Assembly: GCA_030429145.1 (NCBI GenBank)
Contig: JAUIDC010000001.1
Coordinates: forward strand, 840,001 to 872,000
Length of the DNA stretch: 32,000 nucleotides
Origin: Candidatus Saccharimonadota bacterium
Lineage (GTDB): Bacteria; Patescibacteriota; Gracilibacteria; Absconditabacterales; Absconditicoccaceae
Direction of reading: 5' to 3'
Position numbers and translations under genes: made by a program. Under the pieces are notes generated by a model. It was given only the letters and a program-made list of their open reading frames with translations. It did no database searches and was not told the DNA's origin. This document shows positions 2,442 through 19,495 of the stretch, in pieces; the stretch's first letter is position 1, and each line of letters opens with the position of its first letter.

Positions 2442-2470
2442 AAATTATTCTTTATGCATTTATCGTGCAC

Positions 2471-3487: not shown

Positions 3488-3515
3488 CGTTAGTCGATCG
3501 GTTTAATTCATATTG

Positions 3516-3547: not shown

Positions 3548-3554
3548 ATATAAT
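3527..3554 (+). promoter_or_regulatory. Sigma70-type promoter for 3599-4081
   Basis: TTGACA (3527-3532), a 16-nt spacer, then TGaTATAAT (extended -10, hexamer 3549-3554). The -35 element lies in the loop of the upstream terminator hairpin. Confidence 0.5.
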
Positions 3555-3598
3555 TTTATTATAAGATTTGGAGAATTTTATTTTCTATATGTTCTCTC

Positions 3599-4081
3599 AT
3601 GGTATTTGCAGAAAACTTTGAGCCTCAAGAAAAGAAGGAAAAAGATGCTCAACACACTGAAAGTAAAGAAAAACTTGATAAAGATGACATGGCCAAACAG
3701 GCTATGGAACTCCATAAACACCTTGTTGGGCGTTATGATGACGGAATGTATAATTATGAAAATAAGCAGACAAGAGAAATTTTTGAGGTAAAGATAAAAG
3801 GTAATGACATCGTCCTAGGAGTCACCCACATTGGAGAAAAGAAAGTGCTATTTACCTCAAAGGTTGATAATATTGGTCATTTCAACATCTCTATCCCAGG
3901 TGCAGGGACCGCACGTTACAACCCTGAGACGCACGAATATACAGGTACAGAATGAGGTATAAAACAAGTACAAGAATACCTCAATAGATGCCAAAGATAC
4001 CTCCAAGGAAGCAAAGAAAATATGGATAAAAGCATTGCCGAGAGAGAGTTTGATGATAAGCTCGACAAAGTATATAGATAA
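3599..4081 (+). CDS. Hypothetical protein (160 aa)
   Basis: Track ORF 3599-3955 ends in TGA (3953-3955). Read-through adds 42 charged, helical-looking residues (GIKQVQEYLNRCQRYLQGSKENMDKSIAEREFDDKLDKVYR) up to TAA at 4079-4081, which lies just before a strong terminator. Confidence 0.5.
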
Positions 4082-4100
4082 AAACTTTCCCAAGTGAACA

Positions 4101-4133
4101 AAAAAGCCCTGCTACAAGCGAGCGGGCTTTTTT
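4101..4133. terminator. Bidirectional rho-independent terminator between convergent genes
   Basis: GCCCTGCT (4106-4113) pairs with AGCGGGC (4121-4127). It is flanked by A5 upstream and T6 downstream, and sits between 3599-4081 (+) and clpC (-). Confidence 0.7.
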
Positions 4134-4150
4134 CTCTATAATAGTACTAT

Positions 4151-6742
4151 TTACCTCATCATCTGATCAATGAGCTTAGGCTCTACTTCATCATAGATAT
4201 ATCTATCAATAGGACGAGCACCAAACTGTGGGTCGTAGATCTTATCAATGATCTCTGCTACTTTCTTCTTTGTAAATCTTGGTATCTTGATCTCCTCTTT
4301 TTGCTTCCATGCATCAAGGAACTCATTTACTTTCATCACAAAGATTTCACTCAGATTTTCTTTGCTCAAAGGCTTGAAGACGATAGTATAATCAAGTCTA
4401 TTAAGAAGTTCTGGCTTCATCCACTCTTTCAAGCGAGCCATGATACGCTCTTTTTGACCTTCAAAATCTTTCTCACTCATACCCTTCTCGTCATCGCTAC
4501 TGAATCCAATAGAAGCGATCTTCTTACCAAACTCTTCTGAACCAAGATTTGAGGTCAATACAACGATAGTCGACTTAAAGTCAATCCAGCGCCCCTTATT
4601 GTCTTTCAAATGACCCTCATCAAGCATCTGTAAGAGTATGTTCATCACATCTGGTGACGCTTTTTCGATCTCATCAAAAAGCACAATACTATATGGTTTT
4701 CTTCTTACTGACTCAGTCAACACTCCTCCTTCATCGTAACCTACATAACCTGCAGGAGAACCGATAAGTTTTGAAGCACTATGTTTTTCCATAAATTCTG
4801 ACATATCTACTCTGATAAGCGCTTTTTCATCTCCAAAGTATTGCTTTGCAAGAAGTTTTGCGAGATATGTTTTTCCAACTCCTGATGGTCCGAGGAACAA
4901 GAACGAAGCGATAGGCTTGTTTTTCTGTACAACAGACAGTCTATTTCTCTTGATCGACTTCACAACTGCATCAACAGCCTCTTTTTGTCCAACGATACTA
5001 CCTGAAAGATCACTTTCCAATCTCTTAAGTTTCTCTGTCTCACTCTCTGTCACCATGTGAGCAGGCACACCGATCTTATCAGCGAGTACGTGACCAATAT
5101 CTTCAACTGATACTGTAGGTCTGAGATGTTCAGGTAGTGTATTTTTCATACGAAGCTGCTTCATCTCTGCCTTAATTTTTTCTTCTTGCTCTTTAAGCTC
5201 CGCAGCCTGGAAGTAGTCTTGCTTCTCGATAGCTTTCTCTATCTTTTCCTGCACAGCCATAAGCTTTTCTTCTTGCTTCTGATAGTCGTTATTTTTCTCA
5301 AGTTTTTCATTCATCGTTGACTTTCTCGCAGACGCTTCATCGATAATATCGATAGCTTTGTCTGGTAGATGTTTATTGAGAATATATCTCTTTGAAAGAG
5401 CAACTGACTGCTCTATCGCCTTATCATCAATAATCACTCCATGATAATCTTCAAAGTTTTTCTTGATACCATTGAGGATGTGCATTGTATCAGGGATACT
5501 TGGCTCTTCAACATAGAGCTCCTGAAATCTTCTTTTTAGTGCAGCATCTTTCTCGATATGTTTCTGATACTCATCAAATGTTGTTGCACCGATAAGTTTT
5601 ATCTTACCACGCGCAAGAAGTGGCTTTAACATATTGGCAGCATCTGCACTACCCTCCTGATTTCCTGAACCGATGATCGTATGTATCTCATCGATAAAGA
5701 GGATAATATTGTTTGTCACATCTGCAGCCTCCTCAAGGATAGCTTTCAGTCTTGCTTCAAACTCACCACGATATTTTGTTCCAGCTAAGAGTGATCCCAT
5801 ATCAAGCATCATGATACGCTTGTTTTTTAGCTTCTCAGGAACGTCACCAGCGACGATACGCTGTGCAAGCCCCTCCACGATGGCTGTTTTACCAACACCT
5901 GGCTCACCGAGAAGAAGTGGATTGTTCTTTGTCTTTCTGAGCAGTGTATACATCATTTGCTCGATCTCTTTGTCACGACCTACAACTGGATCAAGGTACT
6001 TATCCTTTGCCTCCATAGTAAGATCTGTTCCGAAAAACTCTATAGTCAATTTCTTGTCATCTCCTTTCTTGTCTTTCCCCATAGTGACAGTACTGCTGTT
6101 TACAGAACTTTCTAGTGGATTACCGTCGTCCATCATTCACTCATCTGGGAAGTCATGTTCCATCGCATTGAGGATGGTATCCATAGACTCTTTCGTCTCA
6201 AACTGAAACATACTTATATCATTTAGCGATAAATTAAGCTGTGAAATAAGTTTACCGATCATGCCGAAAAACGCAACCACGCCAACCTGCTTTACGACAG
6301 GGTTCTGCATAAGCATCATCAGCTTAGTCTTTATGGTTTCAAGGTCTGTATCATGCTCTTGGAGGTAGTGTGCAAGTTGGGTAGACAGTTGGTCAATTGC
6401 TATGTATAATAGTACCAAAAAGTTGTTTTTTGCGTCATTGTACTGCTCGAGCGAATCGAGTCTATTATGCAGATTTGAGTTCAACGAAAGATTCTGGAGC
6501 TGAATTTGTGGCTCAAGATCATTTCCCAAATTATAATAATCAGTAATATATGTCTGAATATGCACTGTATCGTGAAGTCCTAAGAACTTCCAGAACAGCT
6601 CAAAAAATTTCTTTTCCTTCGTATACATAAAGATACCAAGAAACATCTCATCTCCATCTATACTTTTTTTCTGTTTTGTCATACTGAAGATGCTTGCATA
6701 TGCAAGATAACGAATATTATCAGATTGGTTTTTCTTTGCCAT
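4151..6742 (-). CDS. clpC: ATP-dependent Clp protease ATP-binding subunit, ClpC-like class I AAA+ (863 aa)
   Basis: Track ORFs 6137-6742 and 4151-6136 are contiguous in the same frame, joined by one TGA (6137-6139). There are two AAA+ modules (GEPGVGKT and GPSGVGKT Walker A). A short UVR-like middle domain (QDYFQAAELKEQEEKI) favours ClpC over ClpB, and an IGF loop (ASIGFSSDD) suggests ClpP docking. The N-domain is divergent. TAA stop. Confidence 0.9.
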
Positions 6743-6902
6743 CTATCGTATTATACTTTCAAATTAAAATATCCTTCATACTATCTTCTTCTCTTTATCG
6801 TTTATCGTTCTTCATTTTTCTACTTTTCTGGTATCCAAAGTCCAGGGCAAATATCTCATGTATATATACGATGTTACTACTGGTAGTGTGACGATTTACT
6901 TC

Positions 6903-7283
6903 TTATGATTCACTCGACTTATTTTCTTTTTTCTCTGTCGGTTTTTGCTTAATAGCTTTTATCAATCCCGATAGCATTTTTGCTATATCAAGTGCTTCAT
7001 TGTAGAACTCAGTAAAGGTGTTTTCATCGATATAATCAAGCTCTTTTGCAACGTACAGCATGCTGCGTAGTTGCGCAGAGTCTTGTCTTGCCTGACTTAG
7101 ATACGCTGTATTCTCTTTGATACTTTTTCCATGCCCTACGGCGATGTGTGTCCCTATAGAGAGACACGGAGCACATATAAGCTCTCTCATCAGCAAATCA
7201 TCGATGCTTGAGAAGTGCTGATAGAGATTGATGCTCAAATCCTTTGCCTTTTGTCGGCAGTGAAGTTCTTCAAATGTTTTCAT
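6903..7283 (-). CDS. Four-helix-bundle protein (23S rRNA intervening-sequence protein / Avd-like family)
   Basis: MKTFEELHCRQKAKDLSINLYQ...CAPCLSIGTHIAVGHGK...YLSQARQDSAQLRSMLYVAKELDYIDENTFTEFYNEALDIAKMLSGLIKAIK follows the family pattern (F.dL.vWqkA..L...iy, a.SI..NIAEG, ArgS..E......a..l.yi). No in-frame TGA. TAA stop. Confidence 0.75.
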   Translation of the reverse strand: MKTFEELHCRQKAKDLSINLYQHFSSIDDLLMRELICAPCLSIGTHIAVGHGKSIKENTAYLSQARQDSAQLRSMLYVAKELDYIDENTFTEFYNEALDIAKMLSGLIKAIKQKPTEKKENKSSES

Positions 7284-7355
7284 TTTTGTTTTTATATGAG
7301 AAGGATAAAAAGTTTTACCCTCAGACTTTGGAACATTTTTGTTTTTGTGCTATAC

Positions 7356-7535
7356 TTAGTCTTTCTTCTTTTTCTTCAATTTTTTCATCTCATCTACTCC
7401 TCCCTTCACGAAATCTCTCGCCTTCCTTCGAAAGCTCTTTCACTTCGGCGTCATACTCGCACCCACTCCAAGGATTGTCGTCCCCAAAATGGCTCAGATG
7501 AGCAACTTATTCAACTTTTTCTCTATTTTTGGCAT
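7356..7535 (-). CDS. YtxH-like small membrane-associated protein (59 aa, tentative)
   Basis: Not in the ORF track because of two in-frame TGAs. The sequence is MPKIEKKLNKLLI[G]AILGTTILGVGASMTPK[G]KSFRRKARDFVKGGVDEMKKLKKKKKD. A Gly-rich hydrophobic helix followed by P-K-G-K-x-x-R and a charged helix resembles YtxH-type proteins. TAA stop at 7356-7358. Confidence 0.45.
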
Positions 7536-7644
7536 TCGTATCACGTACACAATTAAAGTGCTACATTTATAGACAATTGCTCTATAATTACAAGAGGTTT
7601 CGATACACAATCTGTTGATAATATCGCGAGATGAGAGAATATAA

Positions 7645-7672
7645 TTGACTTTCGTCTTTAAGATGCTATAAT
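7645..7672 (+). promoter_or_regulatory. Sigma70-type promoter for 7701-8108
   Basis: TTGACT (7645-7650), a 16-nt spacer, then TGcTATAAT (hexamer 7667-7672). Confidence 0.55.
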
Positions 7673-7700
7673 CTTCCTATCAACAAAAAAACAACTACCA

Positions 7701-8108
7701 ATGGCAACAACAAACCAAAGTACACAAAGACGAGATGAAATCTTAAAAGCTATCACAGAGTATTTCCCTCAGCCGTTTAAGAGCAATGAAGAGAAACGCT
7801 TTTTCCCAGAACATGATGCCTTTGATCACGTAGAGCTTGCTGGAATTTCTGACTTTCAGGAAGTAATGCTCGTTGCTCACCCAGACTATGAGCTTCCCAG
7901 CAAAGACCTTGTCATAGCATGGGACGGGATAAGTGAAGACCACGTGGGTATTGTCTCCGTAAAAATTACTTCTCCTTCACAAGAGAAGACAGTCATCATC
8001 AAATATGATAATGCTGCTGACGACATTATAGTGGAAGGAGTCGAGCCCGAACTAGCAGAACTCGTCAAAAAATATTTATTCTGCAGAGCTAAAGGACACA
8101 TTGATTGA
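7701..8108 (+). CDS. Hypothetical acidic protein (135 aa if TGA at 8106-8108 acts as the end)
   Basis: Intact ORF with no internal TGA, a consensus promoter upstream, and a canonical terminator 18 nt downstream. Its only nearby stop is TGA. Under table 25 the frame stays open to TAA at 8307-8309 (see findings). Confidence 0.5.
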   Translation: MATTNQSTQRRDEILKAITEYFPQPFKSNEEKRFFPEHDAFDHVELAGISDFQEVMLVAHPDYELPSKDLVIAWDGISEDHVGIVSVKITSPSQEKTVIIKYDNAADDIIVEGVEPELAELVKKYLFCRAKGHID

Positions 8109-8125
8109 GAACTATGTAAAACATT

Positions 8126-8149
8126 GCCGGTGGATAAACCGGCTTTTTT
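8126..8149 (+). terminator. Rho-independent terminator
   Basis: GCCGGT (8126-8131), loop GGATAA, ACCGGC (8138-8143), then T6. Confidence 0.7.
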
Positions 8150-8180
8150 ATTATATAAATACACTATACAGATCTTTATA

Positions 8181-8208
8181 TTGACTTATCTACATAAATA
8201 CATAAAGT
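8181..8208 (+). promoter_or_regulatory. Possible promoter for 8239-8580
   Basis: TTGACT (8181-8186), a 16-nt spacer, then TAAAGT (8203-8208). The architecture matches the 7645 and 9254 promoters but the -10 is weaker. Confidence 0.35.
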
Positions 8209-8238
8209 CTATGCTACTAAATCAAATACGCAATACGC

Positions 8239-8580
8239 ATGGAACTGAAACTATATACATTAAAAAATGGAGATACTATTCTTCTCCATCGAAAACGAAA
8301 CAATGGTAAATACCAGATTGGTATGCATGCCATAAACTTGAACTCTCCTCATTTGAGGATCAAGACCTACAACAATAGTCGTCTCTCTAATGAAGTCATC
8401 ATTCATGAGACAGACGCAAGAAACATACTCAACGCTCATTTACAAACTGACTTCTATCAAGGCGTACATGTAGCAGGCAAGCATACTTCTACCGAACAGA
8501 CAAAAAAGCGGTTGGAACAAGTCTGTAAATTACTGGATATGAAATATGTAGAGCCGAAAGTAAAAGAAGCTATTGCCTAA
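8239..8580 (+). CDS. Hypothetical protein (113 aa)
   Basis: Intact ORF from ATG to TAA with no in-frame TGA. No recognisable motif. Confidence 0.5.
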   Translation: MELKLYTLKNGDTILLHRKRNNGKYQIGMHAINLNSPHLRIKTYNNSRLSNEVIIHETDARNILNAHLQTDFYQGVHVAGKHTSTEQTKKRLEQVCKLLDMKYVEPKVKEAIA

Positions 8581-8610
8581 CGGCAAGATGTGGTTAACAA
8601 GAATTATTGG

Positions 8611-8646
8611 TTTTTCAGTCCCTGGTTTTCTGGGGGCTGTTTTTTT
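8611..8646. terminator. Bidirectional terminator between 8239-8580 (+) and the HD gene (-)
   Basis: CAGTCCCTGG (8616-8625), loop TTTT, CTGGGGGCTG (8630-8639), giving a 10-bp stem with G-U pairs. T runs lie on both sides. Confidence 0.55.
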
Positions 8647-9205
8647 ATTGGAAATACCCATAAAAGCTCTTCACCTGACTCCAATAGGTCTCAAGAAATT
8701 CTTTGTATAATGGATGATCAGCAAAATACTTATTGCCGTAGTAGACAAATAGTGGTGCTTTGATAAAAAGATAACCTTTTCTTTGTTCTAGAGTACAATG
8801 ATGGCACTCTGATAAGTTGTGTATCATGTCTGCTAATTTCACTGCCCAGGCATCTATATTTTCTTCATCTATCATCCTCTGCATCATCTCCCACCAAGCT
8901 GTTTCTTTTTCTGTCTGTGAAACGAGGTCAACTAAATGCACCGTTTTCTCACTATATCATAGGTCTTTTAACTGTTCAAATGTATATCCTCCATCCTCTA
9001 CTATATCATGAAGGTATCACGCATATACTATATCCTCATCAAATCCATATTTCTTCAATAACTCCCCTACTGCAACTGAATGGAGATAGATATCTGTCTT
9101 CAAACCTATACGTTGTCCAGGGATTGCTTTCTTCAATAGTTCAATTGTCTCTTCTCTAGTTGGCATATATTTCACATTTTTATTATAAAAAGCCATCATA
9201 CCCAC
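8645..9205 (-). CDS. HD-domain phosphohydrolase, SpoT/RelA N-terminal hydrolase-like (186 aa)
   Basis: Track ORFs 9017-9205 and 8645-8941 are in the same frame and are joined through TGA at 9017-9019 and 8957-8959. The sequence ...LHSVAVGELLKKYGFDEDIVYA[G]YLHDIVEDGGYTFEQLKDL[G]YSEKTVHLVDLVSQ shows the H...HD signature and resembles (p)ppGpp-hydrolase-type HD domains. TAA stop. Confidence 0.65.
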
Positions 9206-9253
9206 GCCTTGTCTCTATATCAAGGGATAGATTTTCTTCTACACACACTTGCG

Positions 9254-9281
9254 TTGACTTTTATCTTTCTAAGTATATAAT
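9254..9281 (+). promoter_or_regulatory. Sigma70-type promoter for the 9307-10388 two-gene unit
   Basis: TTGACT (9254-9259), a 16-nt spacer, then TATAAT (9276-9281). Confidence 0.55.
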
Positions 9282-9306
9282 TCACACATAAACAAAACCG
9301 ATAATT

Positions 9307-9744
9307 ATGTTAGACAAAAAGACAATAAAGTTGCTTCTCTCTAATATATTAGGAGAGCAATTCGACAAGTGGTATACAAGCGATCAACTACAAGACAGCA
9401 ACGTAGAAATCTCTGATGCTGAGACAAAAGTCTGTGACATGGATCAGATATCCAAGACTCTCTTCCACATGCTTTGGATTCGTAACGATTCTATTGGTGG
9501 TGCTGAAGAAAACCTCAGATCTGTCAACAAAGATGATGCTGAATGGCAAAGTAAAGCAAGTCGCTATGAACGAATCAATGCAGAACGACAACTCCTGGAG
9601 TCTCTTCTTCTATTCCATATGAGAAGACAAGCCGTACAAGCAAGAGTACAACTATCTGAAGTGATAGACGGACAGATAGTAGACAAACGGCTGCATGTAA
9701 GACATGGGTATATCATTGTAATAGAAAATATGAAAAAATCGTAA
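9307..9744 (+). CDS. Hypothetical protein (145 aa)
   Basis: Intact ORF from ATG to TAA with no in-frame TGA. It lies 20 nt upstream of the next ORF. Confidence 0.5.
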   Translation: MLDKKTIKLLLSNILGEQFDKWYTSDQLQDSNVEISDAETKVCDMDQISKTLFHMLWIRNDSIGGAEENLRSVNKDDAEWQSKASRYERINAERQLLESLLLFHMRRQAVQARVQLSEVIDGQIVDKRLHVRHGYIIVIENMKKS

Positions 9745-9764
9745 AACGCAAAAAACTACGTATT

Positions 9765-10388
9765 ATGTCTACTACAAACACAAAGCACATTATACTCAGA
9801 GCTCCCCACTCGTTCAGTCCTTATGTGGATACTCATTGGATGAGAATCCTTGAAGGCCTTATGTTGGAATGGAGGTGGGGTGAGTACACAGAAATGCTCA
9901 AAGACGCGCTGGAAGGAATCGACCGGAAATTGTACCCGCATTTGTATAGTATCAAAACTGCCACAGTAGGAGTAAACAAATTCCTACGCGCTCTACCGCA
10001 AGATCACGATGCTATACTACTGTCCTACAGTGATGACAAAGGACTGACTATCAAAACCTGTAACGAAGATGCGCCTGGATGTGAAATAGCATACTATGGC
10101 AATACCGATTCACATCTGGAGGACGCACTTGGCAAACTCACTCCCCCCAAGCATGGGGAGTTCGTACTCAATAATGAGCGTTGGGCTGCAAGCAACTTCG
10201 GCCCTACGAACAACACAATGTATGATTGCGTTGAATGCAAAGAAGCTGGGAGAACGCATAAGATTGTAGAGATTCCTGGGCCACCTGCTCCAGGCAATGA
10301 GGTCTCCTTTAAAGGAGATCCTACTCACTATAATCAATGCACATGCTGCAAGGCCGTTACTGGCGCGTGGGTGCCAGCACCGTACTAA
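9765..10388 (+). CDS. Hypothetical protein with a Cys-rich C-terminus (207 aa)
   Basis: Intact ORF from ATG to TAA with no in-frame TGA. The C-terminal CVEC...CTCC spacing suggests a zinc-ribbon-like element. A terminator follows. Confidence 0.5.
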   Translation: MSTTNTKHIILRAPHSFSPYVDTHWMRILEGLMLEWRWGEYTEMLKDALEGIDRKLYPHLYSIKTATVGVNKFLRALPQDHDAILLSYSDDKGLTIKTCNEDAPGCEIAYYGNTDSHLEDALGKLTPPKHGEFVLNNERWAASNFGPTNNTMYDCVECKEAGRTHKIVEIPGPPAPGNEVSFKGDPTHYNQCTCCKAVTGAWVPAPY

Positions 10389-10419
10389 TTACATTTGAAC
10401 GTTAAATATCTACACTGAA

Positions 10420-10444
10420 GCCTCCCGTATCTGGGAGGCTTTTT
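10420..10444 (+). terminator. Rho-independent terminator
   Basis: GCCTCCC (10420-10426), loop GTATCT, GGGAGGC (10433-10439), then T4. Confidence 0.7.
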
Positions 10445-10535
10445 AAAAAATAATTTTTATTGATTTTCTAAACGATATTTCGCATATCAATAGTATCATC
10501 TATTTCTAATATTATTTACTTTATTTTTCTCCCTC

Positions 10536-11804
10536 ATGAAATTTTCGATTCTTGCTTGCTTACTATCTCTTGTTTTCGTATGAGCTGCTTTCGCTCATCC
10601 AGGGAATACCGCTTCCGATGGATGTCATTATTGTAGAACTAATTGTGATAAACGATGAGTACCTTGGAATCAAAGACATTGTCATGGTGGTTCTTCTTTT
10701 CCTTCAAGCTCTTACCCGAGCTATACTCCAAGTTATACCCCTCCCTCTTACACAACGCCAACCATATATAAAACTCCTACCGAAGAGTGCCAAGAAGAAT
10801 ATTGAATAAATGCCACCGTAGGAACTACTAGCAACACATGTAAATGTAAAGAATGATATAAGTGGGCTACATATGGAGATTATTGTGAACTCAAAACATC
10901 TTTCAATACATGTGAAGATCGAATTAATTGATATTTATGAACAGATTGAGAATGTTATTGCAACACATGATATGAGTGGAGCACTTCTCAAAATAAATGT
11001 ATAAGATCTCAGACTGATCAAGAACGCTGTATAGAACTCTATGGAATTAATAGTTATAGTAGTAATGATGGCATGTGCAGATGCCAAACAGGATATACAT
11101 TTAATTCCAAACATACTACATTATGATGTATATCTGCAAGTCTATCTTGTCAATTAAGCTTTTCTGACCCAAACGTTTATAGTGACTGAATACCAAATAC
11201 CGATGGAAGATATAGCTGCTATTGTAAAGAATGATATCAAAGGGATAACCAGTGAAAATGTACTTTAAATTCTACATCTACAATACACAATAATGAGCTA
11301 GAAGATGCCATTCAACGAATGTATAAAAATGGTCTTACAAGCTATGATTCTATAGAATGATTTATGCCTTTCAATAATATCACAAGGGAACAGGCATCTA
11401 AATTTTTCGTATGATTGAACCAATTCATACTAGCTATAAAATGAGGATCTAAAGAAACAAATGAAAATAAGTGCGTATTTAGTGACATTAGTAATGCTGA
11501 TAGAACTTTAATTAGTTATATTAGCAAAGCATGTGATAGTTGAATAATAATTTGAAGTAAATGAAAATTTAACCCCAATGGAAAATTAACTAAGGCACAA
11601 GCATTAACAATTCTTATTAGAATTATCAATGGGAAAATGGATGAAAGTTGAGAGATATGGTTCGAAAAATACTATCACTCTGCTGCCAATAAAGGATTGC
11701 TAGACAAACTAGATTACCACCTATTGGACCTAGATAGGGAAGATATAAATAGAGGTGACATGGCGAAACTTATTTACAGAACATATTTATATACAACTAA
11801 ATAA
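10536..11804 (+). CDS. Secreted cell-surface protein: signal peptide, Cys/His-rich N-terminal motif, Tyr/Ser/Thr/Pro linker, four CxCxxGY Cys repeats, C-terminal SLH domains (422 aa)
   Basis: Absent from the ORF track because it has 19 in-frame TGAs (hand count). With TGA as Gly it is a single frame from ATG at 10536 to TAA at 11802-11804. It begins MKFSILACLLSLVFV[G]AAFA. Next come HPGNTASDGCHYCRTNCDKR[G]VPWNQRHCHGG and then SSFPSSSYPSYTPSYTPPSYTTPTIYKTPT. Repeats such as CKCKE[G]YKW and CYCNT[G]YEW follow. The SLH-like C-terminus reads FSDISNADRTLISYISKACDS[G]III[G]SK[G]KFNPNGKLTKAQALTILIRII. Confidence 0.8.
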
Positions 11805-11822
11805 ATCATTTAAGGAAAATTT

Positions 11823-12959
11823 TTATACTCTCTTCACAGCCTCACTAACCACCTCAGCTATCCCCTCTTCCAATGGTGAAGGAATAACACTTTCAGGATT
11901 CAAATCTTTGACTGCATCAGCTAATGCTTCAGCGGCAGCTATGAAGTGATCTTGCGTAAGATTTTGAATTTTTCATTCTAACGCTCCTTTGAAAACACCA
12001 GGAAATACTAAGACATTATTAACTTGATTTGGATAATCTGAGCGACCAGTTGCCACGATGTAAGCGCCTCATTCTTTGGCTTCTTCGGGCATAATTTCGG
12101 GAGTTGGGTTGGACATAGCGAAGACGATAGGTTTGTCGGCCATCTTTTGGATATCGGTTCTGTCGAGGACATCAGGCTGGCTGACTCCGATGAAGACGTC
12201 TGCTCATGGGAGGACATCTTTGAGAGATCATTGAGCATTGTTGAGATTGTATGGGATGATTTGATCTTTGTATTCATTACTGTTTCCACGTCACTCATAG
12301 AGTGCTCATTTGCTGTCAACGAGAACGATGTGTTTGACTCATCGAGCAATGAGAAGCTTTGCGATAGCTATCGCTGCCGCTCATGCGCCAGACATGACGA
12401 TTTTGATTTGTTCTTTGTCCTTGTTCACAAGTTTGAGAGAGTTTTGTAATGCAGCGAGTACGACAATAGCTGTACCGTGTTGATCGTCATGAAAGACTGG
12501 GATGTCGAGACGTTTTTTGAGTTGCTCTTCGATATAGAAACAGTTTGGCGCTTTGATATCTTCAAGATTGATGCCACCAAATGTCGGTGCAAGATTTTCG
12601 ACTATAGAAATAATTTCGTCAGGGTCTTGCGTCTTGAGTACAAGTGGCACCGCATTGACTCCACCAAACGTTTTGAAAAGGAGTGCTTTTCACTCCATGA
12701 CCGGTAGTCCTGCCATAGCCCCAATATTACCAAGACCCAGAACTGCACTTCCGTCGGAGATAACTGCGATAGTATTTCCTTTTCGAGTATAGTCATATGC
12801 TTTCTCTGGATCTGCTTCGATAGCTTTACATGGCTCTGCCACGCCAGGAGAGTAGAAAATAGAGAGATCTTCTCTCGTTTTTGCTGATGCTTTGGTGGTA
12901 ATTTCTATCTTTCCTTTGAGCTTTTCATGTGCTTCAAGTGATGCTTTTTTGTAGTCCAT
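11823..12959 (-). CDS. NAD(P)-dependent malic enzyme, short form (378 aa)
   Basis: A single frame with 9 in-frame TGAs (hand count). It contains ...[11 protein letters not shown]...[23 protein letters not shown][G][10 protein letters not shown]...[15 protein letters not shown]...IVMSGA[G]AAAIA..., the hallmark malic-enzyme motifs. TAA stop at 11823-11825. Confidence 0.9.
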
Positions 12960-13057
12960 ATATGAGATATTTTATAAGCTAAACCAACCGTTTACTTATA
13001 TGCATATGCACAAAGAGTACAAGTTGAAAGTCAGTAGGGAATCACTATGCTGACAGC

Positions 13058-14407
13058 ATGCAAGAGATACACACAGCAACAGAAGACACCGCAGGAAGCG
13101 AACCGATACTGTTTCCTGAGGAGCCACTGAAAAAAAAACTGATCCGCAACAGCTTTTGGTTGTATTTTTTCTCGTTTATCGTCGCCCCAACTGGGTATAT
13201 TATTAAGGTAATCGCTTCGCGTGAACTCTCGGTTGAGGATATTGGTATATTCTATTCGGTACTGGGAATTATTAGTCTGATTTCTACGTACAATGACCTC
13301 GGTCTGACCGAATCTATGCAATACTTTTTGCCACACTACCTGATCGACAAGAACTTCAAGAAAGCAAAGTCGATGCTTCAGTTTACGTTGGTGTCTCAGC
13401 TGATCAGTAGTGCACTTATTATCGTAGCACTCCTCTTTCTGGCACCTTGGCTGGCAACTCACTACTTTCAATCACCACTGGCACTCCCACTTCTCCAACT
13501 ATTCTGTATCTACTTCCTCATCATCAATACTTTTCAAATGATTCAGTCGCTCTTTATCGCGACACAAAAAGTAAAGCGGTCACAAGGTATTGAATGAGTG
13601 AGAATGTGGACAATAGTTCTTTTTGTCTTTCTTGGTTGGCAGTTAGATATCTTTAGTCTCAATCTGTTTATGTCATATCGGTTGATCGGACTGGCTCTTG
13701 CGACGATAGTTGGAGTGATCGCTGCCCGAAAGCACTTTTGATGGCTGAGCAAATACAAGAGTGAAATAGACCGAGCATCGATCAAGAAACGATTTGGCTA
13801 CGCATTCTGGGTGATCATTGGGACGAATGCGACGATACTTTTGACACAGATAGACCAACAATTTGCGCTTTATTTCTTTGGCGCAGAAAGTGCCGGATAT
13901 CGAACAAACTACCTCACCCTCTTTAACAGCATGGCAGTTATCTGCACGCCACTGATAGGATATCTTTTCCCACTGCTCAACGAGCTCAATAAGAAAAATG
14001 AGAGAACAAAGATAAGACTACTCAATCGTGCACTCTATGCTGGATTTTTCGCTATCGGTTTGGTGCTTGGGGTAGTTGCATACTTCTGGGGACCTGAGAT
14101 TGCGGTGCTACTCTTTGGAGAGAAGTTTAGATTTTCATGAGAGCTCTTTATCGTGAGTGCACCATTTCTTTGGCTTGTTCCTATCATGGGTATCCAGTTC
14201 CAAAACCTTGCCAGTCATGGTATGGTGAAACAAAGAGTTGGTGTGTTACTCCTCGGTGTTGCAGTAAACTGTGTTGTCAGCATCGTGCTTATGCGTGCTA
14301 TTGGTATCACTGGTATCATCTACGGTACTGCTGCTGGACAAGCTTCTGCTATCATCGCATCATTTATCATCCAACATATCCATCGTCGTCGTCATGCTTC
14401 AGTATAA
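13058..14407 (+). CDS. Polysaccharide/oligosaccharide flippase, MOP (Wzx-like) family (449 aa)
   Basis: Track ORFs 13058-13597, 13811-14140 and 14153-14407 are in the same frame, joined via TGA at 13595, 13739 and 14138. The protein is polytopic and hydrophobic with a typical Wzx-like profile. TAA stop. Confidence 0.7.
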
Positions 14408-15701
14408 TATCGTCACAGGAAAAAACGGAACAGTAAGGCGGTCAAACCGACAAAGTTTTTTGGATAGAGCGATACAAACTGAGTGAGACGAGAAAATAAG
14501 TCTGCTTATGCTCTGCTACAATCATATCGATCAGTTCTTTACTGCGCTAGATAGAGTAGATAGAGAACCAAGACGCAAAAATTTTGTTATCACTATCGTA
14601 CAAAATTCTGATCAGGACGATGCGAAAAAAGCTTTTGAAGAAAGAATTTCAAGTTATAAAAATATCAATGTCCTCTACCCTAAGCACAATCTTGGTTCTG
14701 CATGAGGCTATGCGCTCGGACAAGAGTATATTCTCAGCAGATGATATTCGCACCTCATCATGCTTGAGGATGATGTTGACCTCTATGACGATGATACTAT
14801 CTCAGCGACTATTGATGCCATAGAACACGACAAACAGGTACTTTTCATCAACGCTCCAGTAAATACTGATGGCGACCATTCTCGATACGTCCAATACGCC
14901 TGCTACCCTACTTCCCTCCTCGGACAGGCTGGTATTATCGATCCAAGATTTTACTTTAGAGCAGAAGATCTAGAATGGAGAGTAAGAGTAGAGAACGCGA
15001 TCAAAACCTATCACTATACAAAAACTATCGTTGAGAGAAACTATTTTCATCCTTATCTTAAAGGAGCGAACAATAGCGGCTCACGAATCTACTTCTCCCT
15101 CAGAAACCAACTATGGATGTTCCACAAACACCGCCAATGATTTTTGCAATTTTCTCTCATACTGGCACAGTACATTGCATATGGATTTCTTACCTTTCTT
15201 AGGAGTGGAAAACTCCTGATAGTAGCGTGTATCTGGCATGCTATCATTGATGGAACAGGTAAGTATAAACCGTTGGAGTATCATGGAGAGATGATAAGAT
15301 ATTTTTGAGAGTTTAAAAAAGTGATGGTGAAGGATATTGGATTTAAGTCGAAAGAGGTATGATTTGAAGCGCTAGAAGAGTGAATGAATATAAGAAATAT
15401 CATTGCGAGAACCTCGCTTGCATGATGAGATAGAGTGCATCTTTCAGCCTATTCGGGGTCGCTGGTGACGAGTGGTTGACTTCAGCCCGTATGGATGAAC
15501 TTCATTGCATGTCTGCAAAAACTTCTGGTGATTGAACATCTCAATCGACACAAGAAAGAACTGCAGGGAAAGATATTATCACAGTGAATCTTCTCGCAGT
15601 TGATTAATATATTATTGTTTTTGCCGTGTGTATTGCTATGATTAGCATCATCACTCGTAGCATCTCTGCGGATTTTATGCTCTACGCTCTTGAGAAAATA
15701 G
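14394..15701 (+). CDS. Family 2 glycosyltransferase (rhamnosyltransferase-like core) with an uncharacterised C-terminal third
   Basis: Frame 0 is open from ATG at 14394 (a 14-nt overlap with the flippase) to TAG at 15699-15701. Motifs include ISLLMLCYNH, NLGSA[G]GYALGQ...[G]YSHLIMLEDDV and YFSLRN. About 12 in-frame TGAs. The start (14394, 14460 or 14508) and the status of the last ~130 codons are uncertain. Confidence 0.6.
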
Positions 15702-16502
15702 ATGAGAAACATATCACAGTTTTTTACAAAACAGACATTGTCCTATCTGCTCTATTTGCCGAGAGTTTTCACGACGATCAAGCATCCAGTAGGATTTTTG
15801 AAATCATATATCACGGGAGGTCTGAGTATTGATACTATCTGTCTTAGAAGATGACAAAAATACAACATCGCAAATTTTGATGATCTCGGAGTGTTCTATG
15901 AGATCTTTATCAAGCGTGAATATGGGAAGATTCCACAGTGAAAAATTACTGTCGTGGATATCGGTGCGAATAATGGACTCTTTACTCTCTACTGTAAGTG
16001 GCAGAATCCGCAAGCGACCATCCACTGCTATGAGCCAATTCCTGCATGTGCGGAGCATATTCGTCAGATGGCTAAGGACAATGGTCGGGATGATATCCAT
16101 GTGCATGAAGCAGCGGTAGCTGATCAGAGCGGAGAGCAACAGCTCTATCTCAACGAGCAAATCACTGTCGCTGCTTCCCTCTACCAGGCAGTAGCAGGTG
16201 CTGAGTATGCTATTAACATCAAGACTACGAGTTTTGCTGACCTGCTGAGTGAAGACAATATAGAGACTATAGACTTTCTCAAAGTCGACTGTGAGGGTGG
16301 AGAGTACAGCATCTTTTCGGATATCTCTGCGGAGACCCTCGATCGCTGTAAGTATATCGCTATCGAATACCATGATATAGACGAACAAAAAACGGGCAAG
16401 AAACTATTCAACTATCTACATAGGCTTGTCGGAGAAAAAAGACGTGTTCTTTTTCACCCGCACCCTGCACACCCACACAATGGATTTATTACTATCAAAT
16501 AA
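15702..16502 (+). CDS. FkbM-family methyltransferase (266 aa)
   Basis: ATG lies directly after the upstream TAG. The sequence ...FDDLGVFYEIFIKREYGKIPQ[G]KITVVDIGANNGLFTLY...IHCYEPIP...IDFLKVDCEGGEYSIF...IAIEYH follows the FkbM pattern. In-frame TGAs at 15852 and 15939. Confidence 0.8.
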
Positions 16503-16515
16503 GCTCCTCTTCTCG

Positions 16516-17682
16516 ATGAAAAAAGTAAGATTTCTCTTCTACTCATGAGACGGCATCTTCAAAAACGATCATGTTTTTAAGGAACATGGAGCTATTATTG
16601 ATTATTTCAACAGACATGGCTACGATGCAAAGATGGTCTGTATTGACCATGGTGTGACTGTCAATGCACACGATGTCATCAACAAGAAAGTAGAGGTCAA
16701 ATATCTCAAAGATAAAAAGATGTTTCTATGAGTTTCTCTTGGTATCCTCTCCTATCTTTTCTCTCTTAAAAAACTTCACATCCTTATACTCACGCACTTT
16801 TCACCAAAAACATTTCTCTACGCTCTCTGGTATAGATTATTCAACCACGGCTGAAAGGTATATGTCAAAGCTGACTTTGATGCAGAGCGATTTAAAAATA
16901 ACGATCATGGATTTCTCAAAACCTCATTCGCTCCGCTCAGACGACTGGAGAAACTCCTAGTAAGATGGTTTACCTCCCTCGTTGACCTTATTAGCATAGA
17001 GACAAAGGAGTGAGAAAAACTACTGAAAGAGTACTCATCGGCATTTCACCAGAAACTTGCTTATATCCCCAATGGCTTTGACGAAGCATTTATCGATGAT
17101 CATGATCTTCGTCCGGGCTTCGAGAAGAAAACAAATAGCATCGTAACTATAGGCAGAGTCTGAACCTACCAAAAGAATACAGAGAAACTACTCGACATCC
17201 TGAAACAGGTCGATATGAAAGACCGAAAAGCATATATTATCGGCACGATAGATCCTACTTTTCAAGAGACCATAGATATCTACTTTGAGCATTTTCCTCA
17301 TCTGCGTGAAAAGATTGTTTTCACCTGACCTATCTACGATAGAACAAAACTGTTTCACTATCTCCAAGAGGCAAAAATCTACCTTTGCACTTCAAGATTT
17401 GAGTGATTTAGCCTCGTCTTCCCAGAGCTTCTTTCGCAAGGCTGCTATCTCATAAGCACACCGGTATCAGGGGTGCAAGACATTACTGATCATGAAAGAC
17501 TCGGAAGTATCCTTGAAAATACAGAAGAGTTTGTACATACTCTACAGTGATATATTAGTGAAAACAGCTACTCAAAAGAATTATTTCATGACATAGTAGA
17601 CTATGCGTATAGTCACTTTGCATGGGAAAAGCATCTACAAAGACTAGAAAATTTACTCTGTGGTGATACGAGATGAAAATAA
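16516..17682 (+). CDS. Family 4 (GT-B) glycosyltransferase (388 aa)
   Basis: No ORF in the track (9 in-frame TGAs). The frame was verified by hand from ATG at 16516 to TAA at 17680-17682. EX7E motif: SRFE[G, 17404-17406]FSLVFPE. Confidence 0.75.
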
Positions 17683-18707
17683 GTGATAAGGATAATCCGT
17701 TGTATATAAAAGCCTGTAAAAGAGAGTCTCTTTTTCGAACAGGTGCTGACGACTATGCCAATATAAAGATTCCCCAAAGGGTCAAAGAGTTTGAAAATCT
17801 GCAAAAAACAGGAGATCGTCAGCAAGACGAATTCGCTTTTTTACATTCTCTTGGAACGTTTCCACGTGGGTTATCCCTCGGTTCGTGAGGTGGAAGTTAT
17901 GAGTTGAAGCTACTACAAGAGTGAATAGTAGACCATTTTGTCTTTATTGATATTAGTGAACAAGCCCTCGAGACCCTGCAGAACAATGCTAAAAAACTTG
18001 GCCTCAGTGAGAAGATTGAAACGCGTGTACAAGATTTTAACTTTCTGGATCTCCCTGCAAATAGCTATGATCTCGTGAGCTGTCAAAACATGCTTCATCA
18101 TATCATCAATCTCGAAGAGTGTTTGCACGAGATCAACCAGTCATTAACTCCTGAGGGCATCTTTGTTACCAATGAGTGTATTGGGGAAAACAAGATGTAC
18201 TGGTCTGATGCAAAGATGAGCTTCGTAAAAACCTTTCAGACTGCACTTGCTGAAAAAGGTATAGAAAGCAATGAATATATTAGAACGAGTCCTACAGTTC
18301 TGACAAATAACTGCCCTTTTGAATGTATTAGAAGTGCTGAGCTCTACGATATTATCCAGCACTATTTTGGCGAGACAAAAGTAAAAGAGAATGCATATGG
18401 TCACCTCTGGCATGCACGAAATGCATTGAGTGATAATAGGTCTGATACCTATTTTGCACTACTAGAAACATTCGACAAATTTGTCAGAGAAGAGAAACTT
18501 CTGAGACCCAATCTCCTGTTTGGTATCTACAAAAAATCTCAGAAGCCACTACTAGAAACCAATAGCTGGTCTACAAGTGAGATGAAAAAACAGATCGGCG
18601 TAAGCAGATTCAGCGAACAAGCACTCATGCAACGATGAACGAAGACACAACAAAAACTACCAGGTCTCTATAAGTTTTTAAAACGTCTTTACTTCAAACT
18701 AAGATAA
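17673..18707 (+). CDS. Class I SAM-dependent methyltransferase (344 aa)
   Basis: Track ORFs 17673-17888 and 18075-18638 are in the same frame. Motif I reads LSLGS[G]GGSYE, followed by VFIDIS and DLVSCQNMLHHI. TGAs at 17886, 17922 and 18636. TAA at 18705-18707 overlaps the next ATG (TAATG). Confidence 0.75.
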
Positions 18708-19495
18708 TGAAACCTCAAGTATCGATAGTGATTCTCAACTACAATACACCCGAACTAACAACCGCATGTGTGCAGTCTCTCATTGCACATACAGCAGAGA
18801 TTTCCTATGAGATCATCGTGGTGGAGAACGGATCGAAGCCAGCTAGTAGAGAGTACTTTGAGCAATATCTTACTGACCTTCCATATGTGCATGCCGTCTA
18901 CTCAGAAAACAATCTTGGTTTTGGCTGAGGTAATAATTTTGGCTACAAGCACGCTGAATGAGACTATATTTTCTTTTTAAATAGTGATACCATCATTTGA
19001 GAAAATTCGATCAAAATTCTCTACGATCACTATACAAATTTAGAAAAAACAACGAAAGTATGATTTCTTGCACCAAGACTCTACTACGACCATGAGTTGA
19101 CCAAAAAACAGATGTTCGGCACGAAAGCACCTACGTTTTGAGACGTTTTACTCTACAATATTCCAGGCCTTAAAAACATTTGGAAGAAGAGATATGACCA
19201 ATTTCGCTATGCTGACCGAGACAGAGATAGCGACAAAGAGATCGGTAATGCAGGTGGCCCAGCATTTATGTGTTCAAGAAAATGCTTTGATGACATAGGA
19301 AGGTTTGATGAAAGATTTTTTCTCTACATGGAAGAGTTTGATACAGCCATGAGGCTACATAAAAAATGATATCACAGTTTCTTCACTGCAAAGACAAGCA
19401 TCGTTCATCTCGAAGATCAATCCCCAAAGATAAAACGAAAAAAGCTGAAGATTTCACTCTCCAGCATGTGTAAGTTTTTTTGGAAGTATTTGTAG
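18707..19495 (+). CDS. Family 2 glycosyltransferase (262 aa)
   Basis: Contains MKPQVSIVILNYNTPELT...IIVVENGS...NLGFG[G]GNNFG...IFFLNSD...GPAFMCSRKCFDDIGRFDERFFLYMEEFD. Six in-frame TGAs. TAG stop at 19493-19495. Confidence 0.8.

What the first reader, a model, noticed from the sequence alone, without database searches (positions are those of the whole stretch)
10536..11804. A 422-aa SLH-anchored surface protein is invisible to standard ORF calling (19 UGA-Gly codons)
Between 10536 and 11804 the ORF track shows only a spurious 85-aa ORF in another frame. With TGA as Gly, a clean frame runs from ATG to TAA. It encodes:
- a signal peptide;
- a Cys/His-rich motif (GCHYCRTNC...HCHGG), which from memory resembles YHYH-type domains;
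- a Tyr/Ser/Thr/Pro linker;
- four CxCxxGY(W/F)...C repeats;
- C-terminal S-layer-homology repeats.

This is about 45 TGA per 1000 codons, the densest recoding in the window. In three of the four Cys repeats the conserved Gly of the GY dipeptide is itself encoded by TGA. SLH domains imply attachment to a secondary cell-wall polymer, which is informative for an uncultivated lineage whose envelope is poorly known.
Basis: partly seen in the sequence, partly recalled or inferred. Interest (0 to 1): 0.65.

Follow-up and report, generated by a model that had tools for sequence, protein, structure and literature searches.

The report
Wall-anchored surface protein, TGA-as-glycine bacterium
This is a real gene in an uncultivated bacterium that reads TGA as glycine; it encodes an exported protein held on the cell wall by a standard S-layer-homology anchor, so it is a sound but fairly ordinary annotation, not a new kind of system.

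Summary
Window 10536-11804 (+) is a 422-codon ATG-to-TAA frame with 19 in-frame TGA and no TAA or TAG, where shuffles give about 25. TGA means Gly here, not Trp or stop.

The protein has five parts:
- a signal peptide, with cleavage inferred at AFA|H;
- a 32-aa His/Cys head, a Cys-rich variant of NCBIfam YHYH_alt that scores below its cut-off (PF14240 does not match);
- a disordered Pro/Ser/Thr/Tyr linker;
- four 4-Cys EGF-like units, below every Pfam EGF cut-off;
- a complete three-repeat SLH module.

The SLH module passes the Pfam cut-off. Its model matches SpaA and Sap SLH structures, and a family profile matches SbsB across all three repeats. The residues of the primary ligand groove are kept (R284, G340, W375); G340 is TGA-coded.

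Limits:
- A public protein collection already holds this protein, translated with TGA as Trp.
- SLH proteins are already named in Gracilibacteria.
- Two relatives use TGA more heavily.
- No csaB lies in the window, so the wall ligand is inferred.

Verdict: a new member of a known kind. The uncharacterised head domain is the most interesting part.

The parts
10536..11804 (+). Whole gene: 422 codons plus TAA, with 19 TGA read as Gly.
   Evidence: The frame is open except for TGA. Zero TAA/TAG against a shuffle mean of 25.5. Homologues cover the full length.
10417..10448 (+). Hairpin plus U-run between the upstream gene and this one. It looks like the terminator of ORF 9765-10388, so this gene is probably its own transcription unit.
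   Evidence: RNA fold -18.2 kcal/mol, z = -5.5, no shuffle as good. The consensus terminator scan did not list it. The next gene downstream (11823-12959) is on the opposite strand and converges on this one.
10536..10595 (+). Signal peptide, aa 1-20 (MKFSILACLLSLVFVGAAFA). Cleavage is inferred after A20.
   Evidence: K2, then a hydrophobic core, then A-F-A. The model gives a helix at aa 2-18. In 81 homologues the residue before the His is Ala in 77, and position -3 is almost always small or aliphatic. No signal-peptide predictor was available.
10596..10691 (+). His/Cys head, aa 21-52 (HPGNTASDGCHYCRTNCDKRGVPWNQRHCHGG). A Cys-rich variant of YHYH_alt and a presumed metal site.
   Evidence: NF033223 scores 15.7 bits against a cut-off of 30, but over the full profile. 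Homologues P0106 and P0109 pass at 36 bits. H21, H31, H48 and C33 are invariant; H50 and C37 are at least 90% conserved. C30 and C49 are present or absent together in all but two of the 64 head sequences read. No PDB sequence matches.
10692..10781 (+). Pro/Ser/Thr/Tyr linker, aa 53-82.
   Evidence: 27 of 30 residues are S, P, T or Y (read from the sequence). pLDDT is below 50 for aa 53-77. Similar linkers follow the head in P0002, P0004 and P0106.
10782..11267 (+). Four 4-Cys EGF-like units (C85-C117, C126-C155, C165-C198, C205-C242), forming a disulfide-rich stalk.
   Evidence: Regex and a 67-repeat alignment: the four Cys and the Gly are invariant, the Tyr at least 90% conserved. Every Pfam EGF-type model is below its cut-off. 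The model of homologue P0011 (repeats pLDDT 91-97) matches tandem EGF arrays Pvs25, Pfs25 and NELL at E 3e-5 to 5e-4.
11289..11444 (+). SLH repeat 1, aa 252-303. It lacks the leading F-x-D-V...W segment. It carries ITREQ with R284.
   Evidence: Pfam SLH scores 15.2 bits on this segment alone, profile positions 11-43. R284 is invariant in the family.
11472..11633 (+). SLH repeat 2, aa 313-366. A full repeat with GIIIG (G336 and G340, both TGA) and LTKAQ.
   Evidence: Pfam SLH scores 28.4 bits alone, above the cut-off of 20.8. It aligns to Sap SLH1, 6bt4, at E 1.2e-4. Codons checked.
11649..11795 (+). SLH repeat 3, aa 372-420. It has W375 (TGG) and INRGD with R406.
   Evidence: Pfam does not detect it alone. 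The family profile aligns it to SbsB repeat 3. The whole module matches SLH trimers by fold.

Best explanation
The stretch is a genuine, probably monocistronic gene of a Patescibacteria/CPR bacterium close to Absconditabacterales (SR1), which reads TGA as glycine.

Proposed mechanism:
1. The product is exported by the Sec pathway and cut after Ala20, so the mature protein begins with His21 (inferred).
2. Its C-terminal 170 residues fold into a three-repeat SLH module. This module holds the protein non-covalently on a cell-wall glycan. The fold is shown on a model; the binding is inferred.
3. [quoted passage not shown] They are R284 from repeat 1, G340 from repeat 2 and W375 from repeat 3, which together form the primary groove G2. 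I therefore expect one binding site, most likely for a pyruvylated sugar (inferred).
4. Outward from the anchor come four disulfide-stabilised 4-Cys EGF-like units, then a flexible Pro/Ser/Thr/Tyr linker.
5. At the tip sits a 32-residue His/Cys knob of the YHYH type, which probably holds a metal ion.

The protein is too small, and lacks a lattice-forming domain, to be the S-layer subunit. It is best read as an SLH-anchored accessory surface protein that displays the knob for adhesion or for metal-dependent chemistry at the cell surface. The role of the knob is not known.
For: Gene and genetic code:
- The frame is open except for TGA, with zero TAA/TAG against 25.5 expected.
- Nearly all long ORFs in the window contain in-frame TGA.
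- The window's GlyRS is 58-68% identical to those of MAGs labelled Absconditabacterales, SR1 or 'Peribacteria'.
- In the neighbouring malic enzyme, TGA aligns to Gly in PVMEGKA and in the GAGAAG nucleotide-binding motif, and never to Trp.
- In this gene, TGA positions 41, 107, 145, 233, 336 and 343 align to Gly in 61/63, 22/25, 19/24, 8/10, 3/3 and 3/3 standard-code homologues. Trp appears once in about 350 aligned residues.

Export:
- Signal-peptide features are present. Ala is at -1 in 77 of 81 homologues, directly before an invariant His.

Anchor:
- Pfam SLH scores 36 bits against a cut-off of 20.8.
- Sap SLH matches by sequence at E 1.2e-4.
- The model has pLDDT 88-97 over most of the C-terminal module (aa 251-422).
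- Foldseek matches SpaA-SLH and Sap-SLH at probability 1.0, target TM 0.67-0.71, over about 180 columns.
- The family profile matches SbsB residues 8-168 across all three repeats at E 3.9e-10.
[quoted passage not shown] The residues were mapped.

Stalk.

Head:
-.
- PMC7824862 calls the YHYH domain 'enigmatic' and predicts a Zn site made of three His and an Asp.
Against: - No CsaB-type pyruvyltransferase is encoded in the 32-kb window, and the rest of the genome could not be read.
- One survey of bacterial envelopes, which included 15 CPR genomes in its reference tree, reported that SLH and CsaB were lost in CPR (bioRxiv 10.1101/2021.05.31.446380). A pyruvylated ligand is therefore not assured.
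- The head scores below its family cut-off, and its model confidence is only moderate (pLDDT 67-80).
- No signal-peptide predictor was available.
- Nothing here shows expression.
Confidence: 0.75

Rival explanations
1. [quoted passage not shown] Candidates are a non-pyruvylated glycan or modified peptidoglycan, as in the polyamine-dependent SLH binding described for Negativicutes OmpM.
For: The window has no CsaB. SLH and CsaB were reported lost in the CPR genomes sampled, and that paper treats the Negativicutes' use of cadaverinated peptidoglycan as a possible exception to pyruvylated-polymer binding. Two of the three grooves lack the Gly29 and Trp13 equivalents: Y270 and K391 in place of Gly29, E254 and T324 in place of Trp13.
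Against: The triad that defines the primary pyruvyl-ManNAc pocket in SpaA and Sap is intact. R284 is invariant in the family, and standard-code members have Gly and Trp at the other two positions.
Confidence: 0.25
2. It is the S-layer lattice subunit itself rather than an accessory anchored protein.
For: It carries an SLH trimer like Sap, SbsB and SpaA. S-layer-domain proteins and a periodic surface layer have been anticipated for a Gracilibacterium (PMC6851277).
Against: Only about 230 residues lie outside the anchor, and they are a linker plus small disulfide modules. The two S-layer proteins matched as near-full-length chains are far larger (SbsB chain 892 aa, Sap chain 814 aa). The anchor is C-terminal, whereas the profile aligns to the N-terminal end of SbsB (residues 8-168). 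Family members swap the non-SLH part freely, for example for Peptidase_S8 or for no repeats at all.
Confidence: 0.07
3. Not a gene: a pseudogene or chance frame, with TGA acting as stop. Alternatively TGA = Trp (table 4), as the public database translated it.
For: Table-11 calling finds nothing here. The database entry P0001 carries W at all 19 sites.
Against: Zero TAA/TAG against 25.5 expected. Homology covers the full length. TGA falls on conserved Gly of the GY, GIIxG and WG motifs, and Trp is seen once in about 350 aligned residues. G340 sits at a position where published structures say only Gly allows the required backbone flip.
Confidence: 0.02

Closest known systems
SLH-trimer cell-wall anchors of Firmicutes surface proteins: SpaA (Paenibacillus alvei, 6CWC/7SV5), Sap (Bacillus anthracis, 3PYW/6BT4) and SbsB (Geobacillus stearothermophilus, 4AQ1)
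   Same: Three tandem SLH repeats. Target TM 0.67-0.71 to SpaA and Sap. The family profile aligns across all three SbsB repeats. TRAE-type motifs are present (TREQ, TKAQ, NRGD), and the Arg43-Gly29-Trp13 triad of groove G2 is kept.
   Different: The module is C-terminal here, whereas the profile aligns to the N-terminal end of SbsB (residues 8-168). Repeat 1 lacks the leading segment with Trp13. Only one groove looks functional. Sequence identity is 15-18%. The host is a CPR bacterium with code 25, and two of the Gly in GIIIG are TGA-coded.
YHYH_alt domain (NCBIfam NF033223), the 'enigmatic YHYH domain' of Iyer et al. 2021 (PMC7824862)
   Same: A short module directly after a signal peptide, with the pattern H-x-G...D/N-G-x-H...H-x-H. 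It aligns over the whole 25-position profile. Intermediate homologues pass the cut-off. The conserved His pattern fits the His triad described in the paper.
   Different: It scores 15.7 bits against a cut-off of 30. Two extra Cys (GCH...HCH instead of GGH...HSH or HFH) vary together across homologues. Here the head sits on an EGF-like stalk with an SLH anchor, whereas most relatives carry it on secreted nucleases: SNase PF00565, PF07510 or Endonuclease I PF04231.
Tandem EGF-like arrays (Pvs25/Pfs25, NELL1/2; Pfam cEGF PF12662 and Pvs28 EGF PF06247)
   Same: The CxCxxGY...C hairpin motif. The model of homologue P0011 matches Pvs25, Pfs25 and NELL EGF arrays, with the six best at E 3e-5 to 5e-4 and probability 0.87-0.99. 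P0011 passes the cEGF cut-off, 33.4 against 26.6 bits.
   Different: Four Cys per unit, not six. The window protein is below every EGF cut-off; the best is Pvs28 EGF at 24.2 bits against 26. Global TM scores are low, 0.13-0.25. Many units begin with a short helix carrying the first Cys.
P0004 (662 aa, standard genetic code) and P0002 (485 aa, recoded): the only homologues found with all three modules
   Same: Signal peptide, HPGNTASDGCHYCRTNC head, PT/Y linker, 4-Cys repeats and C-terminal SLH.
   Different: 29% and 37% identity, different repeat numbers, and P0004 has an extra middle region. The neighbourhoods of two other family members (P0031, P0020) are unrelated to the window's.

Membership tests
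SLH domain (Pfam PF00395 / PROSITE PS51272) trimer | Sequence match above the curated cut-off | tested here: met
   36 bits against 20.8, E 6.8e-9, two stretches. Repeat 2 alone scores 28.4 bits, repeat 1 scores 15.2, and repeat 3 is not detected.
SLH domain (Pfam PF00395 / PROSITE PS51272) trimer | Three tandem repeats folding into the three-pronged spindle | tested here: met
   On an AlphaFold model (pLDDT 88-97 over most of the module): SpaA and Sap SLH at probability 1.0, target TM 0.67-0.71. The family profile aligns to SbsB residues 8-168 at E 3.9e-10.
SLH domain (Pfam PF00395 / PROSITE PS51272) trimer | Ligand-groove residues SLH-Arg43, SLH-Gly29 and SLH-Trp13 (rule from PMC6081394) | tested here: met
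   Met for groove G2 only: R284, G340 (TGA) and W375. The other two grooves lack Gly29 and Trp13. The mapping is by sequence position, not by measurement on the structure.
SLH domain (Pfam PF00395 / PROSITE PS51272) trimer | A partner pyruvylated cell-wall polymer and a CsaB pyruvyltransferase in the genome | not testable with these tools
   No PF04230 match among the window's proteins.
YHYH_alt (NCBIfam NF033223) | Score at or above the curated cut-off of 30 bits | tested here: not met
   15.7 bits, E 0.014, over the full profile. Homologues: P0106 and P0109 at 36 bits pass, P0105 scores 29.6, P0004 scores 25.7.
YHYH_alt (NCBIfam NF033223) | Conserved His triad plus an acidic residue, directly after a signal peptide | tested here: met
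   H21, H31 and H48 are invariant and H50 is at least 90% conserved. D28 is present in the Cys-rich form; the GGH-type heads have Asp two positions earlier. Ala is at -1 in 77 of 81.
   Not listed at E up to 10, either for the whole protein or for the isolated head.
EGF-like domains (PF00008, PF07645, PF12662, PF06247 and relatives) | Score above a curated cut-off | tested here: not met
   All are below cut-off. The best are Pvs28 EGF at 24.2 against 26 and EGF_Tme5 at 20.7 against 22. The repeat profile against PDB gives E 0.01-0.05, over the CxCxxGY...C part only.
EGF-like domains (PF00008, PF07645, PF12662, PF06247 and relatives) | Six Cys per unit in the 1-3, 2-4, 5-6 pattern | tested here: not met
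   Four invariant Cys per unit in 67 aligned repeats.
EGF-like domains (PF00008, PF07645, PF12662, PF06247 and relatives) | EGF-like fold | tested here: inconclusive
   Tested on homologue P0011, not on the window protein. It matches Pvs25, Pfs25 and NELL arrays (six best at E 3e-5 to 5e-4, probability 0.87-0.99), but global TM is 0.13-0.25.
Genetic code 25 (SR1/Gracilibacteria, TGA = Gly) | In-frame TGA in most genes, aligned to Gly in homologues | tested here: met
Genetic code 25 (SR1/Gracilibacteria, TGA = Gly) | A tRNA-Gly(UCA) and loss of release factor 2 | not testable with these tools
   No tRNA gene lies in the window.
S-layer lattice protein (Sap/SbsB type) | A large self-assembling domain besides the SLH anchor | tested here: not met
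   Only a 32-aa head, a 30-aa linker and four small Cys units lie outside the anchor.

The most novel reading that the evidence does not exclude
The His-first head (mature N-terminus HPGxTxxDGCHYCRTNC...RHCH) may be an undescribed class of extracellular metal centre. In it the free amino group and imidazole of His1, together with H31 and H48 or H50, would hold a Cu or Zn ion in a histidine-brace-like site, stapled by a C30-C49 disulfide. Bacteria would mount it either on secreted nucleases or, as here, at the tip of a wall-anchored stalk. In that case this protein would be a surface-displayed redox or metal-capture device of an epibiotic CPR bacterium.
Probability: 0.12. Interest if true: 0.6.

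Novelty: new member of a known kind. Interest (0 to 1): 0.33.

Why it matters
It gives a concrete, testable handle on the envelope of an uncultivated code-25 CPR lineage: a protein with a complete SLH trimer and one intact ligand pocket.

- One envelope survey reported that SLH and CsaB were lost in CPR. About 35 distinct recoded family members found here show that at least the SLH half is common in TGA-recoded lineages.
- The case shows how recoding hides surface proteins. JGI entries of one family member are 159- and 51-aa fragments. Public translations carry Trp where the pocket-forming Gly must be.
- The strongly conserved, structurally unsolved His/Cys head, shared with many secreted nucleases, is worth a biochemical look.

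Beyond that, this is a routine annotation.

Tried and rejected
The Trp version P0001 was used instead.
- The first genome-contig scan, with P0001 as query, failed because its peptide patterns contained W at TGA sites. A call using a DNA reference failed on the in-frame stop.
- An exact look-up of P0001's contig found no record, so the rest of the genome could not be reached.
- The consensus promoter and terminator scan gave nothing above chance.
- DNA-level repeats inside the gene: only a 25-nt pair at 84% identity, so the Cys units are old duplications.
- The head profile against PDB sequences gave no match.
- The SLH module against GenBank phages (tblastn) and IMG/VR gave no confirmed match. 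TGA codons in targets would break such alignments, so this is weak negative evidence.
- Synteny: two family members on long contigs sit in unrelated neighbourhoods, so the adjacency to the glycan cluster is not conserved.
- Source names for ten homologues: none are informative.
- A lipoprotein reading (Cys8) was rejected. The Cys is too close to the N-terminus, lacks a lipobox, and is not conserved.
- GC against TGA share across genes: no significant correlation, Spearman -0.20, P 0.26.
Full report
**Observation**

Window 10536-11804 on the + strand translates as 423 codons from ATG to TAA. It contains 19 in-frame TGA and no TAA or TAG. Shuffling the same bases 2000 times gave a mean of 25.5 in-frame TAA/TAG and never fewer than 9. 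The open frame is therefore not chance.

Under table 11 the region shows only an 85-aa ORF in another frame, plus fragments of 40-59 aa.

The window as a whole uses TGA as a sense codon. Almost every long ORF bounded by TAA or TAG carries in-frame TGA. At 45 TGA per 1000 codons this gene is the most heavily recoded credible gene in the window.

**Which amino acid, and which organism**

The convergent neighbour (11823-12959, minus strand) is a malic enzyme with nine TGA codons. In alignments to solved malic enzymes these fall on Gly in the conserved PVMEGKA motif, in the GAGAAG nucleotide-binding motif, and at several other sites. None falls on Trp.

I masked the 19 TGA positions of the target gene and aligned it to 65 homologues whose composition shows a standard code. 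At the motif positions Gly dominates:

| TGA position | Gly in aligned homologues |
|---|---|
| 41 | 61 of 63 |
| 107 | 22 of 25 |
| 145 | 19 of 24 |
| 233 | 8 of 10 |
| 336 | 3 of 3 |
| 343 | 3 of 3 |

Trp appears once in about 350 aligned residues. So TGA = Gly (table 25), not Trp (table 4).

The window's glycyl-tRNA synthetase is 58-68% identical to those of metagenome-assembled genomes labelled Absconditabacterales, SR1 or 'Peribacteria'. That fits a code-25 CPR lineage. No tRNA gene lies in the window.

**Anatomy of the protein** (residue numbers from the Gly translation)

*Signal peptide, aa 1-20.* The sequence is MKFSILACLLSLVFVGAAFA: a basic residue, a hydrophobic core modelled as a helix, then A-F-A. 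In 81 homologues that carry the same head, the residue just before the head's first His is Ala in 77. Position -3 is almost always V, A, S, T, I or G, and the His sits at a median position of 27. I infer signal-peptidase I cleavage at A20|H21, so that His is the first residue of the mature protein. No dedicated predictor was available.

*Head, aa 21-52.* The sequence is HPGNTASDGCHYCRTNCDKRGVPWNQRHCHGG.
- It is 50-87% identical to the same module in 24 representative standard-code homologues. Most of these are secreted nucleases: SNase PF00565, PF07510, or Endonuclease I PF04231.
- H21, H31, H48 and C33 are invariant. H50 and C37 are at least 90% conserved.
- C30 and C49 are present or absent together in all but two of the 64 head sequences read: GCH...HCH against GGH...HSH or HFH. 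The model places them on two short paired strands, aa 30-32 and 47-49. I read this as a disulfide.
- The head matches NCBIfam YHYH_alt (NF033223) over the full profile, but at 15.7 bits against a cut-off of 30. Less Cys-rich homologues pass: P0106 and P0109 at 36 bits, with P0105 at 29.6 just below. It is therefore a divergent, Cys-rich branch of that family.
- Iyer et al. call the YHYH domain 'enigmatic'. They predict a Zn site made of three His and an Asp (PMC7824862).
- No solved structure contains the module.

*Linker, aa 53-82.* 27 of its 30 residues are S, P, T or Y by my count, and pLDDT is below 50 across aa 53-77. Linkers of the same kind follow the head in P0002, P0004 and P0106.

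*Four Cys units, aa 83-244.* Each has the form C-x(n)-CxCxxGY-x(n)-C.
- In an alignment of 67 such units from the family, the four Cys and the Gly are invariant and the Tyr is at least 90% conserved.
- The window protein stays below every Pfam EGF-type cut-off. The best is Pvs28 EGF at 24.2 bits against 26.
- A profile of the unit finds only weak PDB matches (E 0.01-0.05), limited to the CxCxxGY...C hairpin.
- One homologue, P0011, passes the cEGF cut-off at 33.4 against 26.6 bits.
- A high-confidence model of P0011's repeats (pLDDT 91-97) matches tandem EGF arrays. The six best hits, in Pvs25, Pfs25, NELL1 and NELL2, have E 3e-5 to 5e-4 and probability 0.87-0.99, with low global TM.
- So 'EGF-like' describes the fold fairly. 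Membership of the EGF families is not shown, and the unit has four Cys, not six.

*SLH module, aa 246-422.*
- Pfam SLH scores 36 bits against 20.8 on the whole protein. Repeat 2 alone scores 28.4, repeat 1 scores 15.2 (partial), and repeat 3 is not seen by Pfam.
- Sap SLH matches by sequence at E 1.2e-4.
- The model has pLDDT 88-97 over most of the module. Foldseek matches SpaA-SLH and Sap-SLH crystal structures at probability 1.0, target TM 0.67-0.71, over about 180 columns.
- I built a profile from the family's C-terminal modules, masking ambiguous W in recoded members. It aligns to SbsB residues 8-168 across all three repeats at E 3.9e-10.
- This is a complete SLH trimer.

**How the anchor probably works**

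Blackler et al. [quoted passage not shown] The Gly must undergo a backbone flip that no other residue allows. The primary groove G2 is built from Arg43 of repeat 1, Gly29 of repeat 2 and Trp13 of repeat 3.

Positional mapping gives R284 (ITREQ), G340 (GIIIG) and W375, so G2 is intact. The other two grooves lack the Gly29 equivalent (Y270, K391) and the Trp13 equivalent (E254, T324). I therefore predict a single binding site.

G340 is encoded by TGA and W375 by TGG. Reading TGA as Trp, as the public entry does, would destroy the pocket.

The ligand itself is inferred, not shown:
- No PF04230 pyruvyltransferase is encoded in the window.
- The remaining ~0.9 Mb of the genome could not be reached.
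- One survey reported that SLH and CsaB were lost in the CPR genomes it sampled.

**Context**

A strong hairpin with a U-run lies at 10417-10448 (-18.2 kcal/mol, z -5.5), between the upstream ORF and this gene. The downstream gene is on the opposite strand and converges on it. The gene is therefore probably transcribed alone.

A glycan-synthesis cluster runs from 13058 to 30174. It includes a flippase, glycosyltransferases of families 2, 4 and 9, FkbM-type methyltransferases, GtrA, a PfkB-type kinase and a SIS-type isomerase. This adjacency is not conserved around two other family members.

The gene is compositionally odd for the window:

| Measure | This gene | Rest of window |
|---|---|---|
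| GC | 0.33 | about 0.40 overall |
| GC3 | 0.22 (lowest in the window) | mostly 0.30-0.47 |
| TGA share of Gly codons | 54% | 15% pooled (P = 8e-8) |

. Two relatives from lower-GC genomes use TGA for 82% and 73% of Gly codons. The heavy recoding is thus typical of the family. It may reflect transfer from a lower-GC code-25 relative, but that is speculation.

**What is already known**

- The protein collection already holds this exact protein, translated with TGA = Trp, from a 936,577-bp contig (P0001).
- Sieber et al. noted proteins with S-layer domains in a closed Gracilibacteria genome and anticipated a surface layer (PMC6851277).
- The three modules recombine freely. The head sits on nucleases in standard-code organisms, the Cys repeats plus SLH occur in recoded ones, and all three occur together only in the window protein, P0002 and P0004.

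**Verdict**

It is a new member of a known kind: an SLH-anchored accessory surface protein. It is too small, and lacks the domains, to be the S-layer lattice itself.

The parts that would repay work are the uncharacterised His-first His/Cys head, and whether a CPR lineage has a pyruvylated wall polymer to go with its SLH proteins.

Noticed in passing
window 13058-30174: A glycan-synthesis cluster of about 17 genes starts 1.2 kb downstream of the SLH gene. It includes a Polysacc_synt flippase, five GT2, two GT4, a GT9 heptosyltransferase-like gene, two FkbM methyltransferases, a SAM methyltransferase, GtrA, and a PfkB kinase next to a SIS_2 isomerase (a possible heptose-nucleotide route). It contains no pyruvyltransferase. 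It could make a wall polymer or a protein glycan.
   Followed up: partly
window 280-10388 versus 10536-20578: TGA use is uneven along the window. Genes in the first 10 kb use TGA for 0-18% of Gly codons. From 10536 to 20578 seven of the ten genes are at 30-54%. ORF 9765-10388 (207 aa, no Pfam hit) has the highest GC in the window (0.47) and no TGA at all.
   Followed up: partly
BFVD entry A0A8S5RTL0 (not in the window): The best viral structural match of the SLH module is an 'SLH domain-containing protein' from 'Caudovirales sp. gcode 4' (E 5.7e-10, rmsd 2.9 A, 31% identity over 172 columns). A TGA-recoded phage thus seems to carry the same SLH subtype, perhaps as a wall-binding module. Searches of GenBank phages and IMG/VR found nothing further.
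   Followed up: partly
window 10417-10448: A strong hairpin followed by a U-run (-18.2 kcal/mol, z -5.5) sits after ORF 9765-10388. It looks like an intrinsic terminator, but the consensus terminator scan did not list it.
   Followed up: yes
window 31434-31988 (-): A pilin-like gene with an N-terminal methylation motif and a T2SSG domain, at the edge of the window.
   Followed up: no
homologue cluster of P0016 (not in the window): The JGI/IMG members of this cluster are 159- and 51-aa 'hypothetical protein' fragments of a 410-aa family member. This looks like the same family broken up by table-11 gene calling.
   Followed up: no
window 10692-10781 (aa 53-82): The repeated S/T-Y-T/P-P pattern of the linker (SYPSYTPSYTPPSYTTPT) recurs in kind in distant family members (P0002, P0004, P0106). 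It could be an O-glycosylation tract. Tyr- and Thr-linked glycans are known on S-layer glycoproteins; that point is from my own knowledge and was not tested.
   Followed up: no
window 2471-3487 (+): A second exported protein in the window: an N-terminal signal-like sequence plus a weak match to the putative zinc metallopeptidase family Peptidase_Mx1 (26.1 bits against a cut-off of 25.6).
   Followed up: no
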